A stretch of 64,000 nucleotides of DNA from a bacterium (GTDB taxonomy: Bacteria; Zhuqueibacterota; Zhuqueibacteria; Residuimicrobiales; Krinioviventaceae): NCBI GenBank assembly GCA_963675755.2, contig CAXXMD010000002.1, positions 1,952,001 through 2,016,000 on the forward strand, given 5' to 3'. Below, piece by piece: positions 2,149 through 54,117 of this stretch. The notes under the pieces were generated by a model. It saw only the letters and a program-made list of their open reading frames with translations, did no database searches and was not told where the DNA came from. The position numbers were made by a program, and so were the translations under genes. Within the stretch, counting starts at the first letter, position 1. Each line of letters opens with the position of its first letter.

Positions 2149-5100
2149 GTGAACACAATAAAAAACGTATGCCTGTTTCTTTTTTTGAGCGTTTCAATAG
2201 CACTATCTCAAGACATTCAAATTCAATGGGCAAAAACATATGATTATGAATCTGATGGACACTTTATTTTTACATATGATGAAGGACTTTTTTTCATAAC
2301 AGGTGGTGAAGAAATTGTCAGTATTGATAACCAGGGCGCTGAGCAAAATGTCTGGTCGCTTGATCCTGATCATAAATATGAATACATGGGTGATATTGTA
2401 TTTAAAAAGTGCAATGAAGGATATATAATAACAGGTTCGATTCGTCTTGAAGATGAAAACAAAATCAAGGTATTGCTGAAAAAACTTGACAATCAAGGGC
2501 AGCAGGAATGGGAAAAACTCTTTTTCAAAGATGATTATATTAGTGATTATGATGAAGAAGAAGCAAACGTTTCCGTTAACAACTATGGTGGATTTGTCAA
2601 ACAAACACGCGACAATGGTTACATTCTATTTTGTAAAGGATTAGAGTCTGACAGTTTTTATTTCGACGGCTACATGTGGATAATTAAAACAAACCCATAT
2701 GGGGAAAAAGAATGGGACTATAAATTTGGCACTTTTGGCCACCACATAGCATTACATCAAACATCTGATGATGGTTATTTAGTGGCATATAGCAAGCACG
2801 ACGACTATGATGGCGATACTGACCATCTGCTCCGGTTAACACCAGATGGAAAAAAAGAATGGGATTATACATTTAGCACTGACAGGGACGTTAAATCAAT
2901 ACAGCCAACATCTGATGATGGTTATCTTGTCGCTTATAACCGTGATAACGATTCCGGCAATCTGCTCAGGTTAACAGCAGATGGTCAGGAAGTCTGGGAG
3001 AAAAGTTATAAAGAGTTATTAGGATACACCAAACCAGCAGACGATGGCGGATTCTATATATACGGTAACAATCATTCAAAGGATAACCCTGCATGGGATA
3101 CCATATATTTGAAAAAAGTAGCTGAAAATGGTGATGAAATTTGGAAAAAGACTTTTCAAGGTGATATGTCATATGCCTGGTTTTACAACATGATTAAATT
3201 GGATGACAATGGTTACCTGTTATATGGTCATTTTTCAGAGTTTGCTTGGCATACAGGACAAAAGGGCTGGTTAATCAAAACGGACAATTCAGGTAATAAA
3301 ATATGGGAAAAAACATTTACAAGCATTAATAGCATAACTCAAATTCTAAAAATTTCCCCAAACAAATTTATTTTAGCAGGGCATAAAGACGGTTATAAAA
3401 CTATAATTAAAGTCCAGGAAACCACTGAAAATTCCACAACATTTGAATTATTAAGCCCTGTAAACAATAAATCGGGAACTGGAACTCAACTTGTTCTGGA
3501 TTGGACCCCTGTCGATAACGCTTCATCATATCTTGTTGAATTAGATGATAATAGAGACATGTCAAGTCTTGTCATCTCAAAAACTGTATCAAATGAATCA
3601 AACTGCATAGTAGATGGTTTATCCTATTCTACACAATATTATTGGAAAGTCAGGGCACAATTCCCGGATGGATCAGGTTATTGGACAGAGTCCGGCACAT
3701 TTAAAACAATGCCTCCTCCACACATAGAGTTTAATGATAAAGAATACAATATGTCTTATGTGGATGCTGGCGATCAATATTACACGGACAGAGAGTATAC
3801 CATAACAGATCTACCTGATCCATTAAAAAATTGCCTGTGGATCAAAATCCCAAACAGTGAAAAGTATTCAACAGATGACAATTACATTCAATTTCAATTA
3901 AAAAGAGATGCAACTATCTATATCGCTTATGACAACCGGGCCAGCGCTGTCCCAGTTTGGTTATCATCCGAATTTGAGAAAACCGAATACACCATTGAGA
4001 ATACTGATGAAGAAAGTAATTTTAATGTATGGAAGGGCCAATTTGCAGCAGGTGATGTAACATTGGGAGCCAATTTAGCAAACGGCGCAGAGGGTGTCTT
4101 GACAAATTATGTTGTGTTAATAGATATCCCCACCCAAATGCTTGACCCCAGGCACAACAAAACCGGGATTGGAAATGATTTATACTTTAGCTGGGAACCA
4201 TTGGGCAATTTCGGGCCATACGATATAAAAGTCAGCGAAAATCAGGACATGTCAAATCCCTTATATCATATTACCAACATAGAGTATGCCAGGTATAAAA
4301 TAAGAGATTTAGACTATAATAAAGACTATTACTGGAGGATCAAAGCGCACAATCGTAATGATGAGAATGCGTGGTACCAGACACGAAAATTCCATACAAT
4401 GGATGATCCCAATATTCGTCTCTGGGGGCAACAATGGTATACATTTTCCTGGCTTGAAGAAAATGATCAATATTATAATGACCGGAATGATGTGGTTCTT
4501 TCTATCCCTGATCCGTTAAAAAATTTATTGTGGATTAAAACAGATAATGATGATGCAGCTAATGATTCTAACGATCATCTGGAATTTAGATTATATTATA
4601 ACGCAACCCTCTATGTTGGTTTTGATTCAAGAGCTACATCCCTGCCAAACTGGGTAACAGATGATTTTAGTAATACCGGTTTGACCATAACCGTTTCTGA
4701 TTCGGCAAAAGAATTAAATATATGGTCAAAAAATTTCAATAATAGCTGGGTCGCATTGGGATCTAATATGGCCAAAGGCGCTGAAAACATCAAAAGTCAT
4801 TATGTCGTTTTAATAGATACCAACCAGGTACAACCTATCTCTGCTCATTTTGGTTCAGATGTGACATCAGGTGCACTACCCTTAACCGTTAATTTCGCAG
4901 ACAGTTCCCAAGGCCTTATCACAGCATGGGAATGGGATTTTGGTGATGGAACAACCTCTACAGAAAAGAATCCCTCCCATACCTATGAAAATACGGGAAA
5001 TTATTCGGTGAGTTTAACAGTACACGCACCAGACAGCTCTGACACAATCATAAAAGAAAATTACATTACAGTTAAAAATGTGATAGCAAATTTCAGTGCA

Positions 5101-10185: not shown

Positions 10186-10249
10186 TTGATCGCCGGGTAC
10201 ATTGGTGCCCGGCGGTATTATAATGCAGGACTTGTCCTGCTTTTTTTTT
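10186..10249 (+). repeat. Tail-less copy of the 90-bp double-hairpin unit, followed by a T-run (may terminate the GH92 transcript)
   Basis: ttgatcgccgggtacattggtgcccggcgg..tgcaggacttgtcctgc-T9, matching 18630-18690. Confidence 0.75.
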
Positions 10250-10256
10250 GTAGAAA

Positions 10257-10410
10257 TCTCGTCTGAATTGGGATGAAAGGATTAAAAGATGAATAGGATT
10301 GAATCCCCCCCCATTCCAATCCTGTCATCCTTTAATCCTACGAATCTAAATTCAGACAATAAAAAAGCGCCGATTACTGCATGATTAGCAGTGCCGGCGC
10401 TTATAGTAAA
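10257..10410. repeat. Repeat A copy 1: long imperfect hairpin plus minus-strand terminator
   Basis: gtctgaatt...aattcagac, then aaaaaagcgccg...cggcgcttatag. Aligns end to end with 16064-16216. Confidence 0.85.
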
Positions 10411-12035: not shown

Positions 12036-12184
12036 GAGAATTGCAATATTTTGTATTTAGGTGCCTTGGTAAGCAAGGAGACGATTGTGACGGAGACAAT
12101 CCCCCCCATGATTAGATTTACAACGTCAATTCAATCCTGTAATCCTACAAATCATAATTCAGACAGATATGAACATTTTGATTA

Positions 12185-12280
12185 ACCGGCCCTTCGATAC
12201 GCTCGTCCGCAAAAGCGGACTCACACTCAGGGACCTAAATTATTCTAATCAAGTTAATCCGGTTAATCCTTTAATCAGGG
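12185..12280. repeat. Repeat B copy 1 (CCTTCGATAC..CTCAGGGAC palindrome plus 9-mer tract)
   Basis: 12213-12280 aligns with 18413-18480. The palindromic half recurs at about 18572 and 18839. Confidence 0.8.
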
Positions 12281-12298
12281 TGAGCTTTACCCGAAAAA

Positions 12299-13180
12299 TT
12301 AGACACAAAGAAAAGCTCGTTTTTGATTAAATTGGTTTTCAAAGTTAATAGGTGACAAATAATCCAAACTTGAATGAAGCCGTTTATAATTATAAAAGAT
12401 GTCAATATAATCAAAGATTTTTTGTTCAGCATCCTGAAAGGATTCAAATCGTTCAAAAGAATAAAACTCAGATTTGAATGTACCAAAAAAAGATTCCATA
12501 ACGGCATTATCATAACAGTCACCTTTGCGACTCATACTTTGAACAATACCCTGTTCTTTCAAAAATGCTTTTACTTCAATACTTGCATACTGGATGCCGC
12601 GATCGGAATGAAAGATCAACCCTTTTTCGGGTTTTCGTTTGGCAACAGCATCTTTTAGTGACTTTAACACAAAGTCCAAAGATAGATCACGACTTAAGTG
12701 CCAGCTAATGATCTGTCTGGAAAACAAATCCATAATGGCTACAAGATACATCCACTGCTTCTGGACTTTGATATATGTAATGTCTGACAGCCAAATCTGA
12801 TCCGGCCGTTCAGCATGAAAGTTTTGGTTTAGCAAATTTGCGGCAACACGAAACCGGTGTTTTGAATATGTCGTAGCCTTATATTTTTTCTTAACTTTAG
12901 AACGTATATCATTCTCACGCATCAAGCGAGCAACACGGTTTTTGCTGCAATTGTTATTCATTGCTTTAAGCTCGGCTGTAATTCGCGGACTGCCGTAAAT
13001 ATATCGACTTTGCTCATGAACCTGTTTAATGAGTTTGAGTAATTTTTCATTTTCAAGTTCGCGCTGACTGGATCCGCGTCTTCGCCAGGCATAATATCCG
13101 CTCCGGGATACTTTAAAAGCTTCACACATCTTCTGCAGCCGAAATCTGGAGCGGTGCAGAAAAATGAATTCACATTTCAT
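12299..13180 (-). CDS. IS3 transposase OrfB (DDE/rve integrase)
   Basis: YGSPRI, WLSDITYI, HSDRGIQY, DNAVMESFF, YNYKRLHSSL. Confidence 0.95.
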   Translation of the reverse strand: MKCEFIFLHRSRFRLQKMCEAFKVSRSGYYAWRRRGSSQRELENEKLLKLIKQVHEQSRYIYGSPRITAELKAMNNNCSKNRVARLMRENDIRSKVKKKYKATTYSKHRFRVAANLLNQNFHAERPDQIWLSDITYIKVQKQWMYLVAIMDLFSRQIISWHLSRDLSLDFVLKSLKDAVAKRKPEKGLIFHSDRGIQYASIEVKAFLKEQGIVQSMSRKGDCYDNAVMESFFGTFKSEFYSFERFESFQDAEQKIFDYIDIFYNYKRLHSSLDYLSPINFENQFNQKRAFLCV

Positions 13181-13479
13181 TTCGGCAGTTTGGAGAAGAT
13201 GCTGATTGCTTTTTTTAAGATTTCGTTCTCCTCTTCGAGGTCAACGAGTTTCTTTTTGAGATCACGTAGTTCCTGATCAGCAGGCTTCAAATGTCCTTTG
13301 CCTGGAAAAGCATTTTCTTCATCTTGAAGGTACTCTCTTTTCCAATTGCGAAGTGTTGAAGGATTTATTCCAAGTTCTCGGGCAACTGCTTTTAATGGCC
13401 TTTGCCCATCGATGATCAATTTAACTGTTTTGACCTTAAATTCCGTACTAAATGAGCGTCTTGGTTTTCGTTCATTCAT
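13177..13479 (-). CDS. IS3 transposase OrfA (HTH)
   Basis: FSTEFK..VARELGI..TLRNW..EENEILKKA. A7 slippery run at 13210-13216 leads into the open -1 (orfB) frame. Confidence 0.93.
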   Translation of the reverse strand: MNERKPRRSFSTEFKVKTVKLIIDGQRPLKAVARELGINPSTLRNWKREYLQDEENAFPGKGHLKPADQELRDLKKKLVDLEEENEILKKAISIFSKLPK

Positions 13480-16063: not shown

Positions 16064-16216
16064 TCTTGTCTGAATTAGGATGAAAGGATTAAAAGATGCA
16101 TAGGATTTAATCCCCCCCATTCCAATGCTGTTATCCATTAATCCTACAAATCATAATTCAGACAAAAAAAGCGCCGGACAATGCATGGTTAGCAGTGAGA
16201 CGGCGCTTATAGGAAA
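16064..16216. repeat. Repeat A copy 2
   Basis: Aligns with 10257-10410, including the terminator hairpin aaaaaagcgccg..cggcgctt. Confidence 0.85.
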
Positions 16217-17294: not shown

Positions 17295-18377
17295 TTAGTA
17301 TTTCTGCTTTGATAAAAATGTTTGTTTTGCTATCCAAGTCAAACCATCAGCAGGTCCATACCCCCCACTGAAAACGGCTGTTGAAAGCCGAACGGGCAAT
17401 GTATTACCTAACAACTGATTAGGTAAAAATGTCTTACCTATGGCCTTACGTATTGTTTGTGCAGCTTGTTGATGACATACATTCCTGGAGATATATTCCC
17501 ACCATCCTCGTTTTGAAGGTACAAAACCTCCCTTTGGAGCAGCCATAGCTGCATGGATTCCCCCATGGCGGGCTATACCGCTAAGTTTTTTATCATAATA
17601 TATATTATAAGAACCACTATGTAATGGTTCTTGGTCAGCAAGTGTTATTGCATCACGACCTATTTGTCCATCAGCCCAAGCCCAACCATTCGTTTCATCT
17701 TCTATAAATTTATCTATTTCGTCTTCTGACATAGTAGTCTTTGAAACTTGAAGTTTTGGATCAGTTGGCATAATTTTGTTAAACACAGCTCCCTCTAAAA
17801 ATGTGGGTCCTAAAAAGTTTAACGTTTTATCCAAATCTCTTCCAATATTGTTAGCGACAAAATTACTCACGCCAGTTTCATTATATGCAGTATTCCACAC
17901 TGCCTTTCCTGCAACCTCTGCTCCAAGTTTTTGCATGGCAGCTTCTACACCACCAGCAGATACTAATCCCATTGCTCCAAATGCAGCCCCAATGAAAAAA
18001 TCTGTTTCAAAATTTGATTGCCCATTTGAAAAAATCTTATTCATAACAGCATTTGAAAAACCACCAAATAAAATTGGCGCAAGAAAAGCAAACTCCCCAT
18101 CAGGATCCACTATACTTAACGGGTTATTGCCGCAATATACATATGGGCTAAATCCCTGTCCGGCGGGGTCGGGCGTAAACCAACGACCAATGCCAGGATT
18201 GTAGTATCTTGCTCCAAAATAATAAAGCCCGATATCCGAATCAAGCTCTTTTTGCGAGAACTGGTAATTGTTATCATTGTTACCCGAAGCCACCAGGGTT
18301 TCTCCAAAGGGGGTGTAATCGCGCGTCATATCAGTATTGCTCAGCCGTCGCGTACTACCAACCTGATCTTGATACAC
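17295..18377 (-). CDS. Orphan RHS core plus C-terminal toxin, 5'-truncated at repeat B
   Basis: DQVGSTR, DYTPFGE, QKELDSDIGLYYFGARYYNPGIGRWFTPDP, YCGNNPLSIVDPDG cleavage motif. No convincing start codon. Confidence 0.85.
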   Translation of the reverse strand: MYQDQVGSTRRLSNTDMTRDYTPFGETLVASGNNDNNYQFSQKELDSDIGLYYFGARYYNPGIGRWFTPDPAGQGFSPYVYCGNNPLSIVDPDGEFAFLAPILFGGFSNAVMNKIFSNGQSNFETDFFIGAAFGAMGLVSAGGVEAAMQKLGAEVAGKAVWNTAYNETGVSNFVANNIGRDLDKTLNFLGPTFLEGAVFNKIMPTDPKLQVSKTTMSEDEIDKFIEDETNGWAWADGQIGRDAITLADQEPLHSGSYNIYYDKKLSGIARHGGIHAAMAAPKGGFVPSKRGWWEYISRNVCHQQAAQTIRKAIGKTFLPNQLLGNTLPVRLSTAVFSGGYGPADGLTWIAKQTFLSKQKY

Positions 18378-18412
18378 AAAACGGTAGCCTTCGGTTAGAT
18401 AAAGCTCGGGAT

Positions 18413-18482
18413 AAGCGGATTCACACTCAGGGACCTAAATTTTCCAAATCAAGTTAATCAGGTTCATCCTTTAATCAGGGTT
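18413..18482. repeat. Repeat B copy 2
   Basis: aagcggattcacactcagggacctaaat...aagttaatc.ggtt.atcctttaatcaggg, as at 12213-12280. Confidence 0.8.
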
Positions 18483-18485
18483 GTC

Positions 18486-19160
18486 TCCTCATGCCCAGGC
18501 TCTGTCTGGGTGCGAATTGCTTGCTATAGGGTTCCAGGGCCGTGTCTTGGTACCAGGATGGGACATTTCTCACCAGCCCTTTGATACACTCGTCCAAAAA
18601 TGCGGACTCGCACTCAGGGACCTGGATTTTTGATCGCCGGGTACATTTGTGCCCGGCGGTATTATTGTGCAGGACTTGAGTCCTGCATAAATGACATCGT
18701 AGTTATCTTAAACTCAGTTTGCATGTTCCCAAACTCCCCAGGAGTACAGTCCGTTTATGGACTGTGTGCGGATCGCAGATCCGCTTAATGACATAGAATC
18801 TATTAGAATCTCAGTTTTAACCAGGCGGAACATTTCTCACCAGCCCTTTAATACACTCGCCCGCAAAAGCGGACTCGCACTCAGGGACGTGGATTTTTGA
18901 TCGCCGGGTACATTTGTGCCCGGCGGAATTATAATGCAGGACTTGAGTCCTGCATAAATGACATCGTAGTTATCTTAAACTCAGTTATGGGTTCCAAGGC
19001 CGAGCCTTGGTAACAGGGTGGAAAGAATTTCCTTGATCGCCGGGTACATTTGTGCCCGGCGGTATTATTGAGCAGGACTTGAGTCCTGCATAAATGACAT
19101 CGTAGTTATTTTAAGCTCAGTTATAGGGTTCCAAGGTCGAGCCTTGGAACCAGGGTGGTA
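18486..19160. repeat. Compound palindromic repeat array
   Basis: Three near-identical 90-bp units (18630-18719, 18897-18986, 19033-19122), one structural variant (18741-18816), and gggttccaagg..ccttggaaccagg-type hairpins at 18529, 18989 and 19126. Confidence 0.9.
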
Positions 19161-19200
19161 TCAGGGTGAAAATCTCGCGACTGACACCTTACCAGATGAA

Positions 19201-19905
19201 TCAAACAAACTGTACCTGCTTGACCTTTTTAAAACAGATATCCTGCAATTTCAGTTTTTCCACAGCTTTTTTAAAATTTTCTGTTACAATGATTATTTCA
19301 GGTAATTCCTTGATACGAAAGATCTCTTCATCCAGTTGTTCGGGTACTATACTGATCTTGAGGTGATCAGGCTTGGTGATTGAATTTTTACCGCATCGTT
19401 TGCAGGTTTTAACATTGCTATCCATTAATGCAGCTTTGGCATGGATCTGAAATTCATAATATTTGAAATCACTTTGATCGCTCATTCGAATTTGTGTTGG
19501 CGCAATAGCAGGCAAATTTATATTTTGCTCCTTTAATTGCTGGTAGGCTTTGAAACTGATGAGCGGAGTCCAAGGATTTGGCCATGCAAAATCATAACCA
19601 TTCCAATGAGCAATTCCTCTCAATGGACCAAATCTAGTTCCCGGCAGAACAAACAAATCGTTAAAGATTTTATCCGTAGCCGGCTTCATTTCATGATGCA
19701 CAGCCCATTGATAAGGTTTTGGTCTTGAATAATAGTCTTTATACTGCATGCAGGATTCATTAATATTTACTTTAGGATATTGTAAGCCAATAGCCAGCCA
19801 GCTACTGTTACATACATTGCAGATTATACCCGGTACACAGTATTGATGTATTGCACGTATCAAATAATTGGTCGCATTGTCATATGTCATTTCAAAATAG
19901 TTCAT
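19201..19905 (-). CDS. Double-CXXCG motif protein (similar to myxobacterial SitI6-type immunity proteins)
   Basis: PGIICNVCNSSW..GLQYP, LPGTRFGPLRG, CKRCG, IIVTENF. Likely ATG at 19905 (ORF track starts 19920). Confidence 0.7.
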   Translation of the reverse strand: MNYFEMTYDNATNYLIRAIHQYCVPGIICNVCNSSWLAIGLQYPKVNINESCMQYKDYYSRPKPYQWAVHHEMKPATDKIFNDLFVLPGTRFGPLRGIAHWNGYDFAWPNPWTPLISFKAYQQLKEQNINLPAIAPTQIRMSDQSDFKYYEFQIHAKAALMDSNVKTCKRCGKNSITKPDHLKISIVPEQLDEEIFRIKELPEIIIVTENFKKAVEKLKLQDICFKKVKQVQFV

Positions 19906-19935
19906 ATTCTGGTATCCCAATAGTAAATACTTTTT

Positions 19936-20004
19936 TCCTCATGCCCAGACTCTACCTGGATACGAATAGCTTGTTTGGATTCCAGGGCCTAGCCTTGAAC
20001 CAGG
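19936..20004. repeat. Direct repeat of 18486-18557
   Basis: tcctcatgcccag.ctct..ctgg.t.cgaat.gcttg...ttccagggcc...cttg..accagg. Confidence 0.75.
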
Positions 20005-20092
20005 TTGAATTCTTACAGCTACAAGCTTTACTTGCCTCACCTGATTACTGATTACTACAGCTTTTCACGTTAATCGTCTTTCGTCTGCTATC

Positions 20093-22396
20093 TCACTTGA
20101 GCAGCAGCATCTTTTTTGTTTCGATACGTTCACCATTCACAATAAAAGTATAAAAATAAAGTCCGCTTGCAAACTCATTGGCTTGCCAGGAATACTCGTA
20201 CCAACCGGCACTCAAAATTTCATCGGCAATTACGGTTACCTGTTGACCTGAAGCGTTAAAAATTACTACCGATGCCCGGCCCTGATCCGGCAAATAAAAC
20301 CGGATATTTGTTTCAGGATTAAAGGGATTGGGATAATTTTGCTCCAAAATATACTGCGAGGGAATTTTATCTTCATTTTTAATATCTGTAGATGTACCCT
20401 GATTTGCAGCAGCAAAGGTCGGTTCCATTTGTACAAAAGCCCCGGTCCCGTCAGGAAAACGTCCGGTAGTGCGATCATCTGTCTGTTCAGAAAAAGTCAC
20501 CTGATCAACAATACTCGTATCGGAATTGGACAGATATATGGCCTCACCAGATGCGGATAGCTTGAAATTCGCATGTAATCCGGTTTGATCATCATCTTTA
20601 TCCGCCCAGATAATCAAATAATTATGAGCGGCAATAACAGTATCCGGAAAGGACCATTGCGTCAAATCATTGTTATCATCAGTGAGGAAATAACCGCCTA
20701 GTTGAATTGTTTCATCAGTATTATTATAGAGCTCTATCCAGTCGTCAAATTCTCCATTAGCATCTGTTACTGTGGATTCATTACTGGCCATAAACTCGTT
20801 TATTACAACATCACCTTGTACATTAATTTCAAACAATTCATATTGCGCACGTGCAGGTAAAAAACTGGCAGCGTTCTCATTTTCAGCATATATATAATAT
20901 TGAAATCCTGTTGCTCCTGCATTGACCGCAATACCATATATACCGTCCCCTGCATCTCCATCATCATGATTACCATCATCATACATCCGGGCTTGAACAA
21001 ATGCATCAGTAGCTCCATAGCGATAAACCATTTGGACCACATCAGCATTATCCACCCCGGCCGTAATTGTAACAGCAGAATGTGCTGACACCTGCGAAGG
21101 ATTAACAGATATATCATGAACAACGGGTGGATCTGCCAGGAATTCAGGTTGAGCATTCAGGAAATCGAGTCGTGCTTGCATCAATTCGGTAATTCCAATG
21201 ATTGGCTGGTTACCGGGCCCCGGAGGGCCACCACCCCCTATACTGTTATCAATATTGTTTTTAAAATCTGTATAGGTGTAAAACTTGTTGGGATCATTCA
21301 TTACTTCCGTATCAATAATACTTTGCAATTCCTGCGCACGGGTTTTGTACCAACCATTACTGAAAACATCATCCATGATTGTTTTCATGTGTGCAATATA
21401 TATTTTTTGATATGCCGGCTCTGAAAGTATTTTAGAAATAATGGGATAATTGTCATTTTCAACATTCAAAAACGGGTCCAGTTGTTGTATTCCGGTAATA
21501 CTGGAGACATTACTACCAAAAAGATTGGTAAATACTCCAAAGTTTTCATTCAGGTCCCAAATAACAGGATTAAATAACCCTGCATCATCTTTATATAAAT
21601 AATAATTATGTCCAAAATTAACTGGCGAGTCCAGATTTACCATTAGAATGTCAAACGCCAACATCCACAAATGTCTGTCTATATTTAAATAATTTTCAAT
21701 ATCATTTGTATTATTGTTCAGCACATCCAGAAAATCAATCAAATCTTTCCATCCATAATCAGACTCGATTTCAAAAAAAGGCGTATAACTGGATGAATCA
21801 GCACCCCAATAGCCCCATACAACAGTTTCCTGCTGCATATTGTTATTTGTCAATTCTCCTTTAAAATATGCATTATCATCACTGTAAAAATGGGTCCTCA
21901 TAAAATGTTTGTCAACATCCTGAACATTGGTATATAAACCCAGGTAGGTCCCATTAATCCAAACCTTGCAATAATTTGCCTGACTTGCCGGCATATATTT
22001 ACGGGCAATCTCATAACTCAATGTTTCCCGCACAAAACTGGGATCTTTGTAAACGTTTGCCAGCTTGAGAGTTCCATAACCCTGGTGTTCCTGATCATCT
22101 ATCAAATAATCCAGTTTTATGTTCAATGGATTTTTGATCAGGCTGGAATTATAACTGCTGTTTCCTTTATAACGTACTCCCACACTGTCATATTGTATAC
22201 CATTTACAATTGCTGTACCCAGCAACCGATCCTCATTGCCTTCTGCATAGAGATTGTCAAGCAGTTCATCCCAGTTTGATTCCGCAAAAGTCAACTCGAT
22301 GGTATTGATGGTATCTATATCGTAAAAATCCTGACAAAAGATTTTGGTCGCAACAACAAGCAGGAAAATCATTCCCCAAAGTGGTTTTGTTTTCAT
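20093..22396 (-). CDS. CotH-family kinase with lamin-tail domain and T9SS-type CTD
   Basis: VGVRYKGNSS, NLD..HNYYLY, IWDLNENFG; VVINEFMASN..DWIELYN lamin tail; QNYPNPFNP. ATG at 22396 followed by a signal peptide. Confidence 0.88.
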   Translation of the reverse strand: MKTKPLWGMIFLLVVATKIFCQDFYDIDTINTIELTFAESNWDELLDNLYAEGNEDRLLGTAIVNGIQYDSVGVRYKGNSSYNSSLIKNPLNIKLDYLIDDQEHQGYGTLKLANVYKDPSFVRETLSYEIARKYMPASQANYCKVWINGTYLGLYTNVQDVDKHFMRTHFYSDDNAYFKGELTNNNMQQETVVWGYWGADSSSYTPFFEIESDYGWKDLIDFLDVLNNNTNDIENYLNIDRHLWMLAFDILMVNLDSPVNFGHNYYLYKDDAGLFNPVIWDLNENFGVFTNLFGSNVSSITGIQQLDPFLNVENDNYPIISKILSEPAYQKIYIAHMKTIMDDVFSNGWYKTRAQELQSIIDTEVMNDPNKFYTYTDFKNNIDNSIGGGGPPGPGNQPIIGITELMQARLDFLNAQPEFLADPPVVHDISVNPSQVSAHSAVTITAGVDNADVVQMVYRYGATDAFVQARMYDDGNHDDGDAGDGIYGIAVNAGATGFQYYIYAENENAASFLPARAQYELFEINVQGDVVINEFMASNESTVTDANGEFDDWIELYNNTDETIQLGGYFLTDDNNDLTQWSFPDTVIAAHNYLIIWADKDDDQTGLHANFKLSASGEAIYLSNSDTSIVDQVTFSEQTDDRTTGRFPDGTGAFVQMEPTFAAANQGTSTDIKNEDKIPSQYILEQNYPNPFNPETNIRFYLPDQGRASVVIFNASGQQVTVIADEILSAGWYEYSWQANEFASGLYFYTFIVNGERIETKKMLLLK

Positions 22397-22422
22397 ATTA
22401 AAATCCTGATTCGTGATTAAGA

Positions 22423-24261
22423 TTATTTCAACAAGATCATACGTTTTGTTTCCGCAAAAGCCCCACTGGTCAACGTATAAAAATAGGTCCCACTGGATAA
22501 ATCTGATGCCTGCCACTGAATATCATGCCAGCCCCCGGGCATTTCATCGTTTATCAAAGATGCTACCTGTCTTCCATTGGTATTAAAAATAACCAGTTTT
22601 ACCCGCTCCTGACAGGGCAGGTAAAACCGGATTGTTGTTTGAGGATTAAAAGGATTGGGATAATTCTGCGCCAACTGGTATTCCGTTGGCATCGCAATCT
22701 GAACTGTAATCTCGTCCGTAAATGTATAGCTTCCATCAAGATCGATCTGCTTTAATCGATACTGATAAGCAGATAACTGTGTATCTGAATTCACCAATAC
22801 ATCCGTATATTCATATTGGACATGTTCAGAGATGGTATTTCCCCCGGAAACAAAATCCAACACTTCCCACCAGTCACCATTTTTTCTTTCAATCTCAAAG
22901 CCATAATTACGGCTTTCGCTATAGGTGTCCCAGGCCAGTTGAACTGTATTATCATCTGGGAGATAGGTCCCTTCCAGTGTTCCAAACTCTACGGGGGTGG
23001 TGGTATTGAGGTCTGCGTCTCTAACCAGTCGGACATAATTGTAGATACGTATCACATCACCCTGCGGACCATTACCATAGGGGTAATCATCCGGATCACC
23101 AATTTTAGGATCACTGCGCTGAGCACCTGCTCCATGTACATCCTGGAGTATATAATTTCCTGAAAAATCCTGCATCCAGCCCAACGCTTCACCAAAACAG
23201 ACATAAACTCCTCTATCCGGATAGGGGCCATCACAATGCGTTGTAGATGCCCAATAAAAAGGATAATTGGCACCGCCGCCTTCATCTACAATGACCGGTA
23301 CATTAAACAGCGGCGAGATTGCAGCCGAGTTGGTATATGACAAACTGCGTTCATAATCTACAATGCTTTGTAATTCTTTGGCGTTTGGCAGACGCCAGTC
23401 ATTGTGCCCCAGGTAATTTTCACTGTTTTTCTTTTGGGTCCAGGCAAACGCCTCTTTCCACCCCATGCCCTCGCTGCTGCCGGCCTGATCCCACATTAAA
23501 CCTGTTGCAAGATCGGTTATGGTACCATCATTGTTATCTGAAAAATCGTTGGTACCATAATCCGATCTGCCCCTTACCACCTTGACCTCAAAATCCTTGT
23601 TCACAGGATACCCCTTTATCCTTCCGTCAACAAAATTAACGCCGAACATGGTCACGTTTCCACCCATAGTGGTACCTTTATAAATAGTCGAGGTTGCATA
23701 CTGTGCATCAATAATCCGTTCATCCGAAATCACCGTACCGCCAAAACGGAAGTCAAAAGCATCGGTGTCAATATAGGGAATACACTGATCTTCAGTCATC
23801 ATGGTTTTACCGCTAAACAGAATCAGTGAATACAGTTCCTGTATAGTAGGTAATCTCCAATCCGTATAACCTGCAAGTGTACAGGTATCGGCATAGGTCT
23901 GACAAACACTCTGGGAGTATTTGCCTTCCGGCAGACCTTTTTGCCACATCAAACCGGTTACATTGTCTGTAACAGTTCCATCGCCATTGTCAGTATAAGA
24001 GGGTTGATTCCCATTATATTGTGCATCCTGACCATAAAAATCACTCCCGGAGGAGGGTGCGGATATAGCAGCCGAGTTGTTATAGCATACTGTCTGGCCG
24101 GTATCTACAATGGGATAGGTGATTGTGCTTTGGGTTGATGGGGATTTTGCAACCGCTGAATGTGTAGTGATCACATCCGGGTAAACCCGGGCAAATACAT
24201 TCACCGCATTGCTCAACAGCAGGAAGGTTAAAACTGTGATGTAAGTGATGTTCCGCTTCAT
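22423..24261 (-). CDS. DUF1566 (Lcl C-terminal domain x2) protein with T9SS-type CTD
   Basis: DTGQTVCY; two copies of DNxDGTxTDxxTGLMW..DWRLPxxxEL; QNYPNPFNP. Confidence 0.85.
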   Translation of the reverse strand: MKRNITYITVLTFLLLSNAVNVFARVYPDVITTHSAVAKSPSTQSTITYPIVDTGQTVCYNNSAAISAPSSGSDFYGQDAQYNGNQPSYTDNGDGTVTDNVTGLMWQKGLPEGKYSQSVCQTYADTCTLAGYTDWRLPTIQELYSLILFSGKTMMTEDQCIPYIDTDAFDFRFGGTVISDERIIDAQYATSTIYKGTTMGGNVTMFGVNFVDGRIKGYPVNKDFEVKVVRGRSDYGTNDFSDNNDGTITDLATGLMWDQAGSSEGMGWKEAFAWTQKKNSENYLGHNDWRLPNAKELQSIVDYERSLSYTNSAAISPLFNVPVIVDEGGGANYPFYWASTTHCDGPYPDRGVYVCFGEALGWMQDFSGNYILQDVHGAGAQRSDPKIGDPDDYPYGNGPQGDVIRIYNYVRLVRDADLNTTTPVEFGTLEGTYLPDDNTVQLAWDTYSESRNYGFEIERKNGDWWEVLDFVSGGNTISEHVQYEYTDVLVNSDTQLSAYQYRLKQIDLDGSYTFTDEITVQIAMPTEYQLAQNYPNPFNPQTTIRFYLPCQERVKLVIFNTNGRQVASLINDEMPGGWHDIQWQASDLSSGTYFYTLTSGAFAETKRMILLK

Positions 24262-24317
24262 GATGTTCTCCTTACATGATGTGATGTTTTCATGATGTTC
24301 TCTCGTTCTATTAATTC

Positions 24318-24344
24318 TGACGCTGCTTTTGAGAAAACCTTGCG
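24318..24344 (-). promoter_or_regulatory. Putative ECF sigma promoter
   Basis: CGCAAGG-N15-CGTCA upstream of the DUF1566-CotH operon; same spacing at two other sites. Confidence 0.75.
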
Positions 24345-24365
24345 GTTGGTTGTAAAAAAAAAACC

Positions 24366-24446
24366 ATGATTATCATGATTTGACCTTGATTACCATGATT
24401 GACCTTAATTACAATGATTGACCTTAATTACAATGATTAAAGGATT
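24366..24446. repeat. Degenerate ~19-bp tandem repeat
   Basis: atgattgaccttaattaca twice exactly, plus variants. Confidence 0.7.
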
Positions 24447-24495
24447 GGAGGATGAAAACTGGAATGTTAAATTAAAAATCCCTTTTATACAATAG

Positions 24496-24522
24496 GTAGG
24501 GACCGGTCTGAGACCGGTTCCT
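24496..24522 (+). repeat. GTAG-type REP-like palindrome
   Basis: GTAGGGACCGGTCTGAGACCGGTTCCT. Confidence 0.6.
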
Positions 24523-24580
24523 TCATGATAAAAAATCTCTGGACTGAATGATTAAAGGATATTTCTCCTTCCCAAATTCC

Positions 24581-24847
24581 CAGACTGTGTGAAACCCAAA
24601 AAAAAATGTGTTTTTGGAGTGCGGCGCCTTTATGCGCCGCGTCGGGCCGAAGGTCCGAAATAGATATGACTTCATTGTCCAATATTTTAAACCATTGTAA
24701 TAAGATTAGTTCAATATTATTATAAGAATATAATTATATTATGGCCGTCTACGACGGCCCGCATTACATAAAGGTAATGCACTCCACACTATTTTGACTT
24801 ATCTCAAGCTCAACATTTTTTTAATTAATTCATTTTAACAGAGTCTG
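24581..24847. mobile_element. MITE-like non-coding element (267 bp) inserted into a palindrome
   Basis: Terminal IRs CAGACTGTGTGAAA / TTTAACAGAGTCTG; TCC duplicated on both sides; splits tctccttcccaaat..atttgggaaggaga. Confidence 0.7.
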
Positions 24848-24948
24848 TCCGATTTGGGAAGGAGATTACATGCTTTTTTTAACATTCACCAAGGGGAATT
24901 GAAAATATTTCAAAATTTCTAGCACCCATCTTCATGCAGGTTACAGAA

Positions 24949-24987
24949 TAAAAAAATCCTCCCAAAGGATAAGCCTTCAAGGAGGAT
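24949..24987 (-). terminator. Intrinsic terminator after the sulfotransferase gene
   Basis: atcctcc..ggaggat stem with a T-run on the minus strand. Confidence 0.55.
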
Positions 24988-25040
24988 GAATATATATACA
25001 AACAGCTTTTAACGTTTGCCTATTGCCGTTTTACGTCTCG

Positions 25041-26690
25041 CTATTTTATCAATACCATCTTTTGTGTTTTTACCGGCTCACCACCAACATAGAGTGTATA
25101 GAAATAAATGCCGCTGGCAAAGGACCCTGCCTGCCATGTGAAGGAATGTAATCCTGCATTCAATTCCTGATTAACCAGCGTTGCCACCTGCTGTCCTTTT
25201 GCATTATAGATCACCAGAGATGCCAGGTCCTGCACAGGCAGATAAAAATCTATATTTGTGACCGGATTAAAAGGATTGGGATAATTTGCATCCAATTCAA
25301 TAGCAGTCGGTATCTGTTCATGCGTGTTGATACCTGTAAACAATCCGCTTTCAAAATCAGAGTCATAATATCGAACTGCTCTGAACACCGAATTGCTTTC
25401 CAGATCCATTGGATTTGAAGACTCGATGGGATTCACATACTCCCATACCGTCTCTCCCGCTTCGGTCACCTCAAAAAAGGTTCCGGCAGGACCATTACAG
25501 ATTAGTGTGTTTCCGTTAGGCAATCTCTGTGCACCCGAGATGTGATCAGCGTAAAATGACCGGGGTGGAGTGGCTTTATAGGTCCAGGTTGAGGTTTCAG
25601 GTCCATACGCCGCATCATTTTCGTGCGCATAGCTGCCGTTAACATAATCCGGCAGTGTTATCTGTTCAACTGTTGAATAATAGCCGTCCTGACGGCCACG
25701 GCCGTTATTAAATATCAAAACATCACCGGCACCGGGCAAGCCATCGGCAATCCAGTGACCATCGTGCGGTACAAACAGCTTTTGATCATCATCCGTACCA
25801 TGATCATAGGTTTGCGGGTTACCCCAGCGGTATAACAGATCGCCCTTACTTCCTGCGGCTTCTTCTGTTGTAGTATTATGGTCTATAATCCAGATTTCAC
25901 TAAAATTGTGCACAGTAATCATAACCTGATCACGCTCCGCGTTATACTCTACCGCATTGGTGTGGGTCCAATCTGCTGCAGCCGTATCATCAATTCTTCG
26001 CAGGTAAAAATTGAGATTAATCTTTTCAGGATGCTCTGAAATTACACCATAATTGGGTTTTGTTTCATCATAATCCTGAACCAAATGGTCCCAAACATGC
26101 CATTCCCACACAATATTACCACCTTCGGGGTATACTGGCTCAACTTCTATGATCTTGTCCGGCCAGAGTCCTTCATCCCCAAGTGTTTCAGGATCTCTAC
26201 CCTGCGCTAATGCTTCCTCAACGGATTTCTGTTCCCAGGAAATCATGAGTATATTGCCATTTGGCAAATATTCCACATCGTGATGCAGAAGGTAATTTTC
26301 ACTATTGTGTTCAAAAGACCAGAGCAGGTTCGCCTCCCAGTCTAAAAGCTGAACAATTCCACCGCTGCCACCGGTACCGCCAAATACCGGATTCACCTGT
26401 TTTCCAACTGTACATGTACGTAACAAGGATTTATCAGAAAGCAGATACACAGAATGCCCGGGAGTATAATCACCCGGCCAGGTTTTGACAAAATTCTCAT
26501 CTGCATCCATGAGATAGGTCGTTGTAGAGCCAAGAGGTGCAAACAGTGTATATCCACCGGATTCGTAACCATTTACAGTTAAATTCTGAACCTGGGGATT
26601 GGCATAACTCTCCCCATAGACACCCAAAATCATTAAAAGAATAAAATAAAGCATATTACCAATTTTAAAACTTTTAGTACCTGACAACAT
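25041..26690 (-). CDS. Aryl-sulfate sulfotransferase (ASST-like) with T9SS-type CTD
   Basis: GYTLFAP, LLHHDVEYLPNGNIL, DWTHTNAV, GDLLYRWGNP, SGAQRLPNGNTLI; ANYPNPFNP. Confidence 0.85.
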   Translation of the reverse strand: MLSGTKSFKIGNMLYFILLMILGVYGESYANPQVQNLTVNGYESGGYTLFAPLGSTTTYLMDADENFVKTWPGDYTPGHSVYLLSDKSLLRTCTVGKQVNPVFGGTGGSGGIVQLLDWEANLLWSFEHNSENYLLHHDVEYLPNGNILMISWEQKSVEEALAQGRDPETLGDEGLWPDKIIEVEPVYPEGGNIVWEWHVWDHLVQDYDETKPNYGVISEHPEKINLNFYLRRIDDTAAADWTHTNAVEYNAERDQVMITVHNFSEIWIIDHNTTTEEAAGSKGDLLYRWGNPQTYDHGTDDDQKLFVPHDGHWIADGLPGAGDVLIFNNGRGRQDGYYSTVEQITLPDYVNGSYAHENDAAYGPETSTWTYKATPPRSFYADHISGAQRLPNGNTLICNGPAGTFFEVTEAGETVWEYVNPIESSNPMDLESNSVFRAVRYYDSDFESGLFTGINTHEQIPTAIELDANYPNPFNPVTNIDFYLPVQDLASLVIYNAKGQQVATLVNQELNAGLHSFTWQAGSFASGIYFYTLYVGGEPVKTQKMVLIK

Positions 26691-38287: not shown

Positions 38288-38864
38288 AATCTACTCCTTG
38301 TCTGCAATATTCACACTATCATTTCACTGTTTTATTATGAATATCCAATACCCCTACAAATGATTTTTCACACAAATTACAGCTGGATTGACGGGAATCC
38401 CCCATTGATTATATGCAAATTAAAGCAGGAGTTAAATTAGCATATAAACAAAATAGTGGATTTGAATCGAGTTCAATTACAATTCCGTATCTACAAAAAC
38501 CGAACCAAACCCACAATACTTGAATTTTGACAAGAAAAATAAACCTTTGTTTTTAAGTACCTTACAATATTAACATAAAATTAATACATGAAAAATTACA
38601 AAAACTGACTGTACAATCGTTAAAAACCAGAAAATTGTAGAGAAAAGCGGGAAAAAATTACTCGTGTAAGTAATGAATTTTTAATCACAGAACAAGTGCT
38701 AATATTAGCTTGCCATTATAGGGGTGTAATATTGCTGTGGTTTAATCATCCATTAAAATTTGGGAGTACTTTGGTTATCTGACATATTGCCAAAATCCCT
38801 CAGGATTATTATATTATTTATCTGTGTTAATACTGACAAAAGAGAGTAAAAAACTGAGGAAATT

Positions 38865-51057: not shown

Positions 51058-54000
51058 ATGGAACCATTAAACCTGAAAGCATCACACAAGGTTGTTAAAG
51101 ATTATTATGCCGAAATAGAAAACCTCACTTCCATGCATTTGTTTTCAGAGGGCAATGTCTCTCCTGCTTTTGCAAACTTGTTAAGACACTGTGCCAGACA
51201 ATACAACTGGACACTGGCAGAACAATATCCACTGACTGTTAAAAACAAAAATATTCGTCCTGATGGCGCATTGATTGACCAGTTTGAACTGGTTCATGGA
51301 TTATGGGAAGCCAAAGACAGCCAGGACGATCTTGCGCTTGAAGTCAAAAAAAAATTCGACAAAGGTTACCCCAAAGAGAACATTCTTTTTCAGGAACCTG
51401 AACGTGCCATTATATGGCAAAACGGTGTTCAGGTTTTTGACGAGCCCCTGAAAAACCCCGACAATCTCATTGCCTGTATAGATATCTTTGTTCGTTTCCG
51501 TCCGCCTGAAATTGAGGAATGGGAACAAGCAGTTGAAGAATTTAAACTCAAAGTACCCGAACTGGGTGCATCTCTGCTAAACATTATTGAACAAGAGCGT
51601 AAACAGAACAAGGCTTTTGTAAGGGCCTTGCAAGACTTTATGGAACTGTGCCGGGCCGCCATTAATCCCAATCTCTCTGAAAAAGCTGTTGAAGAAATGC
51701 TTATTCAACACCTTCTTACGGAACGGATTTTCCGTAATGTCTTTAACAACCCGGATTTTGCCAACCGCAACATAATTGCACATGAAATTGAAAAAGTGAT
51801 TCAGGCACTAACCTCACGCTCGTTCAGCAAGCACGAGTTTTTAAAAAAACTGGACCGCTTTTATACAGCAATTGAACTGACTGCAAGCACCATTGATGAT
51901 TATACCCGAAAACAGGCCTTTTTAAACACGGTTTACGAAAACTTTTTTCAGGGATTTTCTGTCAAAGTGGCTGACACTCACGGCATAGTTTATACCCCGC
52001 AGCCTGTTGTGCATTTTATGGTCAATTCTGTTGAAGCCGTCTTGAACAAAGAATTTAACCGCTCACTATCAGATAAAAATGTGCACATTCTAGACCCCTT
52101 TGTGGGAACGGGTAACTTTATAATTAATGTAATGCGCAAGATGAAAAAGACCAGCCTGGCACACAAATTCAGACACGAGCTGCACTGTAACGAAGTCATG
52201 CTGCTACCCTATTACATAGCCAGCATGAACATTGAGCACGAATATTATGAACTGACCGGTGAATATGTGCCCTTTGACGGCATCTGCCTGGTAGACACCT
52301 TTGAACTGGCAGAAGATAAACAGTTTAGCCTGTTTACTGCCGAAAACACCGAGCGCGTGCAGAAACAGATGGAAACCCCCATTTTTGTTGTCATTGGCAA
52401 CCCGCCCTATAACGCGGGCCAGGTAAACGAAAACGACAATAACAAAAACCGAAAATACCCGGTAATAGACCAACGCGTAAGAGACACCTATACCCGGGAT
52501 TCAAATGCCACCAACAAAAACGCCCTGTCTGACGTTTATGTCAAAGCCATACGCTGGGCCTCTGACCGTGTGCTGAAAAACGGTGAAGGCATTGTAGCTT
52601 TAATCACAAATAACAGCTATATAGATGATTTTGCATTTGACGGAATGAGAAAACATTTACATGAAGATTTTGACGATCTATATATTATTGATCTAAAAGG
52701 CAATGTCAGAAAAGACTCTATGCGTGACGGTATTCCATTAGGTGAAAAGCATACTATTTTTGGTTTATCTGCAATGGTGGGAATTTCAATAGCAGTACTT
52801 GTTAAACACAAGAAACCGAAAAAAAAGCAGATCGATTATTTTTCTGTGGATTTTAGGGCCACAAGAGATGAAAAATTGGATATACTTGAAAAAGCAGAAA
52901 ATATATTTAATCTTCAATACAAAAATATTTTACCCGATGCAAAACACAACTGGCTGACCGAAGGTATGCGGCAAGAGTTTGACGGGTTTGTGCCGTTGGG
53001 AACTAAAGATGCAAAACATAATTTAGAAAAGTCAATATTCCATACATATAGTAGAGGTGTAGCCACTTGCCGTGATGCATGGGCATACAACTTTTGCCAG
53101 ACAGAATTGATTGAAAACATAACAAACATGATTGATTATTATAATGAACATGTTTATAAATGGTCAAAAATGTTAACAAAACCTGAAATAAATAGTTTTG
53201 TTGATAACGATGATAAAAAAATTAGTTGGAGTCGTGATCTAAAACAGGATATGGTCAGAGAAAGAACAGCCCAATACCATGATAATAAATTAAAGCCGGC
53301 ACTTTATCGACCGTTTAGTAAACAATATCTGTTTTTCGATCGAATAATTAATGAAGAAATTTACCAATTTCATCATTATTACCCATTAAATCAAGAGAAC
53401 AAGATCATTGGATTATCTGCCCCCGGCAACACAAAACCCTTTCACTGCATTATGACCGATATCATAGCGGATCTACACCTGACAGGTGATTCACAATGCT
53501 TCCCCTTTTACACCTATGATGAAGATGGCAGTAACCAACGTGAAAACATTTCAGACTGGGCATTGGATGAATTCCGCAGCCAATACAATGATAAAACGAT
53601 AACCAAATGGGACATTTTCTATTACGTTTACGGCCTGCTGCACCATCCACAATACCGGGAAACATACCAGGCCAACCTGCGCCGTGAATTGCCGCGCCTG
53701 CCCTGGGCACCCGACTTTTGGGCGTTCAGCCATACCGGCAAGCAGCTCGGCGATCTGCATGTTCACTATGAACAACAGGATGAATATCCGCTCGATATGG
53801 TGGAAACACCGGAAATGCCCCTTGATTGGCGCGTTGAAAAGATGAGGCTTACGCCGGACAAGTCCCAGCTCATCTATAACGATTTTCTCACCCTTGCCGG
53901 TATTCCGCAAGAGGTGTTTGAATACCGGTTGGGCAACCGCTCTGCCCTGGACTGGATCATTGACCAGTACCGGGTCAAAACCGACAAACGCAGCGGCATT

Positions 54001-54117
54001 GTTAACGATCCAAACCGTCCTGACGATCCTGAATATATAGTTCGGCTTGTCAAACAGATCATTACTGTTAGCCTGAAAACCGTAGAGATTGTCAAGGGGC
54101 TGCCAAAAATAAAATAA
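51058..54117 (+). CDS. Single-chain restriction-modification enzyme (Type IIG-like; m6A MTase with Type ISP-like specificity region, no helicase)
   Basis: PDG..EAK nuclease motif; GIVYTP; ILDPFVGTGNF; IGNPPY; LYRPF; YRLGNRSALDWIIDQY. Confidence 0.88.
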   Translation: MEPLNLKASHKVVKDYYAEIENLTSMHLFSEGNVSPAFANLLRHCARQYNWTLAEQYPLTVKNKNIRPDGALIDQFELVHGLWEAKDSQDDLALEVKKKFDKGYPKENILFQEPERAIIWQNGVQVFDEPLKNPDNLIACIDIFVRFRPPEIEEWEQAVEEFKLKVPELGASLLNIIEQERKQNKAFVRALQDFMELCRAAINPNLSEKAVEEMLIQHLLTERIFRNVFNNPDFANRNIIAHEIEKVIQALTSRSFSKHEFLKKLDRFYTAIELTASTIDDYTRKQAFLNTVYENFFQGFSVKVADTHGIVYTPQPVVHFMVNSVEAVLNKEFNRSLSDKNVHILDPFVGTGNFIINVMRKMKKTSLAHKFRHELHCNEVMLLPYYIASMNIEHEYYELTGEYVPFDGICLVDTFELAEDKQFSLFTAENTERVQKQMETPIFVVIGNPPYNAGQVNENDNNKNRKYPVIDQRVRDTYTRDSNATNKNALSDVYVKAIRWASDRVLKNGEGIVALITNNSYIDDFAFDGMRKHLHEDFDDLYIIDLKGNVRKDSMRDGIPLGEKHTIFGLSAMVGISIAVLVKHKKPKKKQIDYFSVDFRATRDEKLDILEKAENIFNLQYKNILPDAKHNWLTEGMRQEFDGFVPLGTKDAKHNLEKSIFHTYSRGVATCRDAWAYNFCQTELIENITNMIDYYNEHVYKWSKMLTKPEINSFVDNDDKKISWSRDLKQDMVRERTAQYHDNKLKPALYRPFSKQYLFFDRIINEEIYQFHHYYPLNQENKIIGLSAPGNTKPFHCIMTDIIADLHLTGDSQCFPFYTYDEDGSNQRENISDWALDEFRSQYNDKTITKWDIFYYVYGLLHHPQYRETYQANLRRELPRLPWAPDFWAFSHTGKQLGDLHVHYEQQDEYPLDMVETPEMPLDWRVEKMRLTPDKSQLIYNDFLTLAGIPQEVFEYRLGNRSALDWIIDQYRVKTDKRSGIVNDPNRPDDPEYIVRLVKQIITVSLKTVEIVKGLPKIK

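What the first reader, a model, noticed from the sequence alone, without database searches (positions are those of the whole stretch)
18741..24785. Covarying double-hairpin family: GGAGT, 7-bp stem, (C/G)TTTAT loop, second 7-bp stem with C-GNA-G triloop
Seen, three copies: 18741(+) GGAGT ACAGTCC GTTTAT GGACTGT GT GCGGATC GCA GATCCGC; 24616(+) GGAGT GCGGCGC CTTTAT GCGCCGC G TCGGGCC GAA GGTCCGA; 24785(-) GGAGT GCATTAC CTTTAT GTAATGC G GGCCGTC GTA GACGGCC. Stem sequences differ largely but stay paired, while leader, loops and lengths are conserved, so a sequence search would likely miss them. Known: d(C-GNA-G) triloops are unusually stable in single-stranded DNA, and HUH/RAYT transposases recognise a short guide plus hairpin. 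Inference: an ssDNA-level, shape-recognised element, possibly with active stem diversification.
Basis: partly seen in the sequence, partly recalled or inferred. Interest (0 to 1): 0.75.

Follow-up and report, generated by a model that had tools for sequence, protein, structure and literature searches.

The report
REP hairpins riding inside a MITE
The three double hairpins are a new variant of a common bacterial repeat (REP) that a single-strand-cutting transposase recognises, and two of them sit as a pair inside a small element that appears to be moved by a second, unrelated transposase.

Summary
Confirmed: three copies, the only full-descriptor hits in the window, at most 0.025 per shuffle. 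A truncated GTDB scan with 11 stem pairs left free gave 41 of 43 paired matches in four genomes, 0 of 74 elsewhere (genomes grouped after seeing pairing). In a close relative, copies flank a split RAYT/TnpA-REP gene with Quentin subclass-2.8 motifs. That subclass's REPs are GTAGT-stem-C-TTTA-G, so this is a GGAG-footed, two-hairpin REP variant. An intact IS1182 with the same ends occurs in the relative. Stems fall into a few recurring subfamilies that blastn finds; active diversification is unsupported. Covarying REP stems and REP-plus-second-hairpin units have precedent. I found no report of a REP doublet carried by a DDE MITE. Cleavage, transposition and transcription were not tested.

The parts
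18741..18784 (+). REP copy 1 (subfamily A): GGAG foot + T, 7-bp stem with GTTTAT loop, 2-nt linker, 7-bp stem with C-GCA-G triloop; no MITE end found upstream; same subfamily as the copy beside the RAYT gene in L076
   Evidence: blastn 90% over 50 nt to L076:5118-5167
18725..18740 (+). Left half of a palindrome resembling the MITE target family, directly before copy 1; possibly the remnant of a MITE insertion whose arm was deleted (inferred from a few bases only)
24564..24577 (+). Left arm of the target palindrome into whose loop the MITE inserted
   Evidence: 10 of 10 arm pairs with the right flank
24578..24580 (+). Left copy of the 3-bp target-site duplication (TCC)
24581..24847 (.). 267-bp non-autonomous MITE with IS1182-type terminal inverted repeats, carrying the REP doublet
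   Evidence: intact IS1182 with the same ends at L066:7122-8721
24581..24595 (+). Terminal inverted repeat on the B side (1 mismatch to the 14-nt motif shared with IS1182)
24616..24658 (+). REP copy 2 (subfamily B), foot facing outward, arm of the doublet
24659..24742 (.). 84-nt AT-rich spacer; length 84-85 in 6 of 6 copies of this MITE type, about 70% identity
24743..24785 (-). REP copy 3 (subfamily C), foot facing outward, other arm of the doublet
24833..24847 (-). Terminal inverted repeat on the C side (2 mismatches); continues as the left end of the intact IS1182 does
24848..24850 (+). Right copy of the target-site duplication (TCC)
24852..24865 (+). Right arm of the target palindrome

Best explanation
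The elements are REP sequences of a RAYT/TnpA-REP (HUH Y1) system close to Quentin subclass 2.8, with a GGAG foot instead of GTAG and a second 7-bp GNA-capped hairpin. Shown: the family exists in four genomes, and its copies flank a RAYT gene in inverted orientation in a close relative. Inferred from E. coli, Stenotrophomonas and Marinomonas TnpA-REP biochemistry: when the GGAG strand is single-stranded it folds; the enzyme reads the foot and TTTA loop by sequence and the stems mainly by shape, nicks nearby and spreads copies. Subfamilies A, B and C therefore keep the foot, loop and lengths while their stems differ by compensated changes. Also shown: the inverted B+C pair in the window, like most copies sampled, is the interior of a 270-300-bp MITE. 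The MITE has the ends of an IS1182-family element, is flanked by 3-4-bp duplications and sits in the loop of another palindrome family. Inferred: an IS1182 transposase moved the doublet in trans as cargo, while stand-alone copies such as 18741 reflect the RAYT route or decay of MITEs.
For: RAYT link: L076 holds a gene with NHYH, WY and YIYYNP motifs. Both halves hit NCBIfam NF047646 (E 1.2e-8 and 3.5e-11, below cut-off because split); 6 of 6 full-length relatives scanned pass the cut-off. One copy ends about 20 nt from the stop codon, a disrupted copy lies just upstream of the start in the opposite orientation, and a third follows. A RAYT profile hit only L076 among the 109 scan loci, and nothing in the window. 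Independent match: subclass 2.8 key motifs are NHYH, W[YH], YIHYNP with a proline-rich N-terminus, and its REPs are GTAGT + 5-7-bp stem + C-TTTA-G. Pairing at positions left free in the scan: 41 of 43 against 0 of 74. MITE: 39 of 57 copies checked have the 14-nt end motif upstream, nearly all at about 36 or 70 nt. 8 of 13 complete units have exact 3-4-bp duplications and the other 5 differ by one base; flanks pair as palindrome arms (6-10 of 10) in 13 of 13. Intact IS1182 (387 bits, cut-off 270) with the same ends and the same kind of target lies in that genome. Some IS1182-family members are reported to target palindromes. A window protein is 96% identical to one on a contig of the same length as OY843751.1.
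Against: Neither the RAYT nor IS1182 is in the window; both come from a relative. The only RAYT found is split into two frames in that assembly, and two protein searches found no intact close homologue; the nearest full-length relative is 44% identical. It is one REPtron in one genome. The canonical GT[AG]G foot is not met. The role of the second hairpin is not shown. The IS1182 itself carries no hairpin copy, so why the arms stay more conserved than the spacer inside a MITE (91% against 70%) is unexplained by the DDE route alone.
Confidence: 0.8

Rival explanations
1. The hairpins are now an RNA-level or host-selected signal (mRNA stabiliser, attenuator or protein-binding site) spread by the MITE; the RAYT link is historical.
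For: Inside MITEs the arms are more conserved than spacer and outer arms (91% against 68-71% in the window type; 91-94% against 82-90% in the JAKQIY type). The only RAYT found is split. Stem 2 has 17 G.T against 3 A.C on the GGAG strand. RNA-level roles are attributed to REPs in general.
Against: The C-GNA-G triloop (47 of 55 copies GNA, biased by the search pattern) is a DNA-stable motif (abstract). No terminator-like site at the hairpins. No Rfam match in the window. Most G.T cells are one inherited position, and stem 1 shows no G.T bias. All window copies are intergenic but in mixed orientation.
Confidence: 0.12
2. The hairpins are neutral cargo of an IS1182 MITE; pairing is kept by hairpin-templated mutation correction, and the position next to a RAYT gene is chance.
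For: Most sampled copies (39 of 57) are in MITEs. Pair-breaking variants are as common as compensated ones within MITE lineages (10 broken against 5 both-side states).
Against: Templated correction would keep stems but not the unpaired loop: loop differences are 6 of 108 and 0 of 132 against 178 of 752 and 156 of 1028 in the spacer (partly biased by the search pattern). About a dozen copies, including all KSB1 copies, have no MITE end. Three copies surround the one RAYT gene, whose subclass has a matching REP type.
Confidence: 0.05
3. One reading: an enzyme actively rewrites the stems, and recognition is by shape only.
For: 12 of 14 pairs show a change on both sides across 45 distinct copies; covariation score 0.752 against 0.230 shuffled. 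Within the window's MITE type both arms show compensated variants (4 states among 6 copies).
Against: Few stem types recur many times and across genomes. The count of pairs with two-sided change is reached by 31 of 500 shuffles, and the set was pre-selected for pairing and is related by descent. No reverse transcriptase or template gene was seen among 40 window ORFs. The same pattern is described for ordinary REPs.
Confidence: 0.03

Closest known systems
REP/REPtron of TnpA-REP (RAYT) subclass 2.8 (Quentin et al. 2018, PMC6006769)
   Same: Partner protein motifs NHYH, WY, YI-YNP and proline-rich N-terminus; tetranucleotide foot + T, short stem, TTTA loop; several REP subfamilies per REPtron.
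   Different: Foot is GGAG, not GTAG; the loop reads (C/G)TTTAT, so TTTA is closed by C.T or G.T inside a 7-bp stem; a second GNA-capped hairpin follows. Table S1 lists single hairpins only, from cyanobacteria (2 of 7 parts read, whole file searched for GGAG and CTTTA).
GGAG-footed REPs of Chloroflexus aurantiacus and Methylomonas methanica (Quentin Table S1, subclass 2.2)
   Same: GGAG foot followed by T and a 7-11-bp stem.
   Different: Different RAYT subclass and loops; no second hairpin listed.
REPINs and head-head REP dimers (Bertels & Rainey 2011, PMC3337134; Di Nocera 2013, PMC3733652)
   Same: Two inverted REPs with feet outside, discrete spacer length and spacer more variable than the REPs.
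   Different: Here the doublet joins two different subfamilies and is enclosed by IS1182-type terminal repeats and a target duplication; the spacer is not a long hairpin arm.
[quoted passage not shown]
   Same: A REP unit joined to a second stem-loop, flanking a RAYT gene, with hundreds of genomic copies.
   Different: Degenerate GTAG-1 units in Pseudomonas; their sequences are in a figure I could not see, so a direct comparison was not made.
IS1182-family elements and their MITEs; REP-targeting ISs (IS1397, IS621)
   Same: Terminal inverted repeats, short duplication and insertion into palindromes.
   Different: Known cases insert into REPs; here the non-autonomous element also carries a REP doublet as its interior.

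Membership tests
REP (RAYT-associated) | Short intergenic palindrome repeated in the genome | tested here: met
   3 copies in intergenic DNA of the 64-kb window; 21 in 12 loci of the relative and 24 in 17 loci of JAKQIY from a truncated scan
REP (RAYT-associated) | [quoted passage not shown] | tested here: met
   GGAG in 55 of 55 aligned copies (required by my descriptor); foot differences 4 of 90 and 12 of 110 in whole-MITE alignments
Canonical REP | Foot is GT[AG]G | tested here: not met
   Foot is GGAG; GGAG feet do occur in Quentin Table S1
REP (RAYT-associated) | Copies flank a tnpA-REP gene in inverted orientation (REPtron) | tested here: met
   L076 in the relative OY843751.1; one locus, gene split, left copy disrupted; not in the window
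REP (RAYT-associated) | Strand-specific binding and nicking by the cognate TnpA-REP | not testable with these tools
   Needs an in-vitro assay (as in PMC8266576)
TnpA-REP subclass 2.8 | NHYH, W[YH], YIHYNP motifs and proline-rich N-terminus | tested here: met
   NHYH, WY, YIYYNP (one residue differs) and HTPPHLF
TnpA-REP subclass 2.8 | Placement by the authors' subclass profile or tree with reference members | not tested
   No reference 2.8 protein was retrieved (searches gave only distant RAYTs); assignment rests on motifs and REP likeness
REPIN | Inverted REP pair at a fixed spacing, REPs more conserved than spacer | tested here: met
   Spacer 84-85 nt (6 copies) or 93-94 nt (8 copies); arms 91-94% against spacer 70-82%
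REPIN | The doublet itself is the mobile unit, moved by RAYT | tested here: not met
   Homology extends past the REPs to terminal repeats and target duplications of DDE type
IS1182-derived MITE | Terminal inverted repeats shared with an autonomous IS1182 | tested here: met
   Same 14-15-nt ends as L066:7122-8721, whose ORF passes NF033551; likeness beyond about 18 nt is not evident
IS1182-derived MITE | Target-site duplication, no coding capacity, multiple loci | tested here: met
   Exact 3-4 bp in 8 of 13 complete units, one mismatch in 5; 267-299 bp
IS1182-derived MITE | Mobilisation in trans by the transposase; empty orthologous sites | not testable with these tools
Known structured RNA (Rfam), tRNA, intrinsic terminator | Match at gathering score; ARAGORN gene; hairpin plus T-run | tested here: not met
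   (one search covered 24260-25050 only)

The most novel reading that the evidence does not exclude
The 270-300-bp unit is a two-enzyme element: an IS1182 DDE transposase moves it by its ends, while a RAYT still acts on the internal two-hairpin REPs and replaces or re-seeds arms. That would explain why the foot, loop and pairing stay conserved inside the MITE, why the same arm variants occur inside and outside MITEs, and why one B arm is paired with different partners in two MITE lineages. It would be a case of REP doublets spreading by hijacking a second transposase, with the second hairpin as an extra recognition module of this RAYT clade.
Probability: 0.2. Interest if true: 0.7.

Novelty: new variant of a known kind. 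Interest (0 to 1): 0.42.

Why it matters
How REPs and REP doublets spread is still described as unresolved (PMC8266576 introduction). Here most sampled doublets carry the signature of a DDE insertion, which offers a RAYT-independent route for REP-doublet dispersal that can be tested with two ordinary enzymes. The family also gives a natural substrate set (GGAG foot, TTTA loop, second hairpin, three stem subfamilies) for a RAYT subclass with no biochemistry in the papers I read. It is not a new kind of element: covarying stems, GGAG feet and REP-plus-hairpin units each have precedent.

Tried and rejected
Rfam at gathering score and ARAGORN on the window: nothing. RAYT or IS1182 in the window: none by Pfam on 40 ORFs, motif scan, profile or tblastn. 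blastn of window 24563-24863 against plasmids: only AT-rich chance hits at E 0.3-0.9. tblastn of RAYT queries against plasmids and phages: 1, 1 and 0 records; the Chloroflexota hit is another RAYT type with GTAG-led repeats, and the family model hit neither fetched region. Intact close RAYT homologue: none at 59-189 or 190-2000 residues (the latter is weak evidence). Idea that the MITE interior is the REPtron with tnpA deleted: rejected, spacer ends are no more alike to the REPtron's inner sequences than shuffles (208-312 of 500). Spacer homology between the two MITE lineages: 1 of 6 tests at 9 of 500, inconclusive. Intrinsic terminator or promoter at the doublet: not found above chance. DGR target hairpin (GNA loops, recalled; an Lcl_C gene lies nearby): rejected because the copies are not at a gene's 3' end and no reverse transcriptase was seen among the 40 ORFs. 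A tree of MITE units ended in an error and gave no result. The taxa of the RAYT homologues and the named lineage of the window stayed open; record titles give KSB1 for one genome, Cytophagia for one and only 'bacterium' for two. Metagenome and viral contig collections were not searched.
Full report
Observation. The three elements are present as described at 18741(+), 24616(+) and 24785(-). With leader, loop and GNA fixed and the stems free, the window gives exactly these 3 hits and each of 40 dinucleotide shuffles gives 0. Shape+GNA and leader+shape give 3 against 0.025; shape alone with one mismatch is not clearly enriched (20 against mean 11.7, max 20). Each folds as ssDNA into the two hairpins (z -3.2 to -5.8). 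There is no Rfam or tRNA match in the window. The host looks like an FCB-type bacterium from its many Por-secretion tails (inference). No Y1 transposase was found among 40 ORFs or by profile.

The family elsewhere. Of 117 scorable matches (one more was cut by a contig end), 41 of 43 in four genomes pair at 9 or more of 11 free positions, against 0 of 74 in all other genomes. I grouped the genomes after seeing the pairing. The genomes are OY843751.1, JAKQIY, CAYNSO (titled Cytophagia) and WJJN (titled KSB1). A window protein is 96% identical to one on a contig with the length of OY843751.1, so I treat that genome as a close relative. On 55 copies chosen for at least 6 of 7 pairs in both stems (7 of 62 descriptor hits dropped), 12 of 14 pairs change on both sides, and the covariation score is 0.752 against 0.230 shuffled and at most 0.179 slid. 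The percent paired is circular, relatedness inflates the score, and 31 of 500 shuffles reach the pair count. The stems are a few recurring subfamilies: in JAKQIY two exact stem-1 types make up 20 of 24 copies, and blastn links each window copy to siblings. The triloop is GNA in 47 of 55 (biased by the pattern); AAA and four others occur.

The RAYT link. In L076 a gene at about 4422-4972 carries NHYH, WY and YIYYNP and is split into two frames in that assembly. Both halves match NCBIfam REP-associated tyrosine transposase below cut-off; 6 of 6 full-length relatives scanned, from a search of 1.84 billion representatives, pass it. A B-type copy ends about 20 nt past the stop codon facing the gene, a disrupted A-type copy lies just upstream facing the other way, and another A-type copy follows. 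Window copy 1 is 90% identical over 50 nt to that last copy. A profile of the clade hit only L076 among the 109 scan loci. Quentin et al. 2018 (PMC6006769; I read the abstract, sections 12 and 26, part 1 of 2 of section 15, and parts 1 and 7 of 7 of Table S1 plus term searches of it) give subclass 2.8 the motifs NHYH, W[YH], YIHYNP and a proline-rich N-terminus. Its REPs are GTAGT, a 5-7-bp stem and C-TTTA-G. That independent likeness to GGAGT-stem-(C/G)TTTAT is the strongest argument that the neighbourhood is not chance. Against: one locus only, the gene is split, and no intact close homologue was found.

The MITE. Aligning the doublets showed homology beyond the REPs. A 14-nt end motif lies upstream of 39 of 57 copies checked, nearly all at about 36 or 70 nt; 17 lack it (four of these are arms of decayed doublets) and 1 was too short. 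Partial model hits and one at 47.5 bits were left out. Of 13 complete units with both flanks (two at contig ends dropped), 8 have an exact 3-4-bp duplication and 5 differ by one base; in all 13 the flanks pair as arms of a palindrome. In the window the unit is 24581-24847, with TCC duplicated and arms at 24564-24577 and 24852-24865. L066 holds a 1600-bp element with the same ends, a 3-bp duplication, a similar palindromic target and an ORF passing the IS1182 model (387 bits, cut-off 270). It has no hairpin copy inside. Palindrome targeting by some IS1182-family members and loop-only duplication are discussed in PMC5678879 (passages); REP-targeting ISs in PMC3184786 (passages). Within the window's MITE type (6 copies) the arms are 91% identical and the spacer and outer arms 68-71%, with spacer length 84-85; in the JAKQIY type (8 copies) the figures are 91-94% against 82-90%. 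The unpaired loop differs at 6 of 108 and 0 of 132 cells against 178 of 752 and 156 of 1028 in the spacer (three truncated units included, pattern bias applies). Pair-breaking variants also occur (10 states against 5 two-sided). The spacer is not a remnant of the REPtron.

Mechanism. Shown: family, REPtron in a relative, MITE anatomy, matching IS1182. Inferred from PMC8266576 (abstract, introduction, part 1 of 2 of the discussion): TnpA-REP binds one folded strand, reads the foot and loop, nicks at a nearby dinucleotide and joins strands. The C-GNA-G cap would help hairpin 2 fold in ssDNA (PMC3201870, abstract only). Inferred: the doublet's latest insertion at 24581 was made by an IS1182-type transposase in trans. 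Copy 1 is either a RAYT-spread singlet or a MITE remnant, since it follows half of a target-like palindrome. Unexplained: why the arms stay conserved as cargo, and what hairpin 2 does. Overall confidence 0.8; RNA-level or host selection 0.12, neutral cargo 0.05, active rewriting 0.03.

Comparison and novelty. Subfamilies with alternative complementary stem residues, head-head dimers and REP units joined to a second stem-loop beside RAYT genes are in Di Nocera 2013 (PMC3733652; sections 5 and 16 and passages, figures not seen). Selection for complementary mutations is in Nunvar 2010 (PMC2817692, passages). Fixed-length, variable spacers are in Bertels & Rainey 2011 (PMC3337134, passages). GGAG feet are in Quentin's Table S1. 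The REPIN-versus-MITE distinction and frameshifted RAYTs are in 10.1101/2021.07.10.451892 (passages); 10.1101/2024.06.02.596822 (passages) added nothing. Searches of the open-access library showed no listing that describes this family or a REP doublet carried by an IS1182 MITE; I read listings and the passages named, subscription papers and ISfinder were not covered, and bioRxiv supplements were not seen. Verdict: new variant of a known kind; interest 0.42, mainly for the nested REP-in-MITE-in-palindrome arrangement and its bearing on how REP doublets spread.

Noticed in passing
window 18400-19160, 10186-10234, 12206-12281: A cluster of other palindromic repeat families in 136-267-bp tandem units (families D2, D9, D14, D15), with siblings at 10186 and 12206; D15 resembles the MITE target palindrome. 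Copy 1 interrupts this array.
   Followed up: partly
window 17295-18377 and 19201-19920: An RHS core-domain C-terminal ORF and a SitI6-family double-CXXCG immunity gene flank the repeat cluster; it looks like an orphan interbacterial toxin-immunity cassette region.
   Followed up: no
window 12299-13479: IS3-type two-ORF element (HTH_Tnp_1 and rve).
   Followed up: no
L066:5128-5190 and L088:148-210; L076:4318-4380: A 20-bp hairpin-containing insertion in the B arm of two MITE copies, and a longer interruption in the left REPtron copy: small palindromes appear to insert into this family.
   Followed up: no
L083:280-422: In the KSB1 genome, two tandem units in which two hairpin-1 arms face each other 8 nt apart with no full hairpin 2, like a doublet with its centre deleted.
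   Followed up: no
window 10306-10364, 12134-12165, 16112-16170, 38343-38374: A further short non-palindromic intergenic repeat family (D11, D20).
   Followed up: no
window 51058-54117: Type ISP restriction-modification-like ORF with methylase, coupler and specificity domains, 1019 aa.
   Followed up: no
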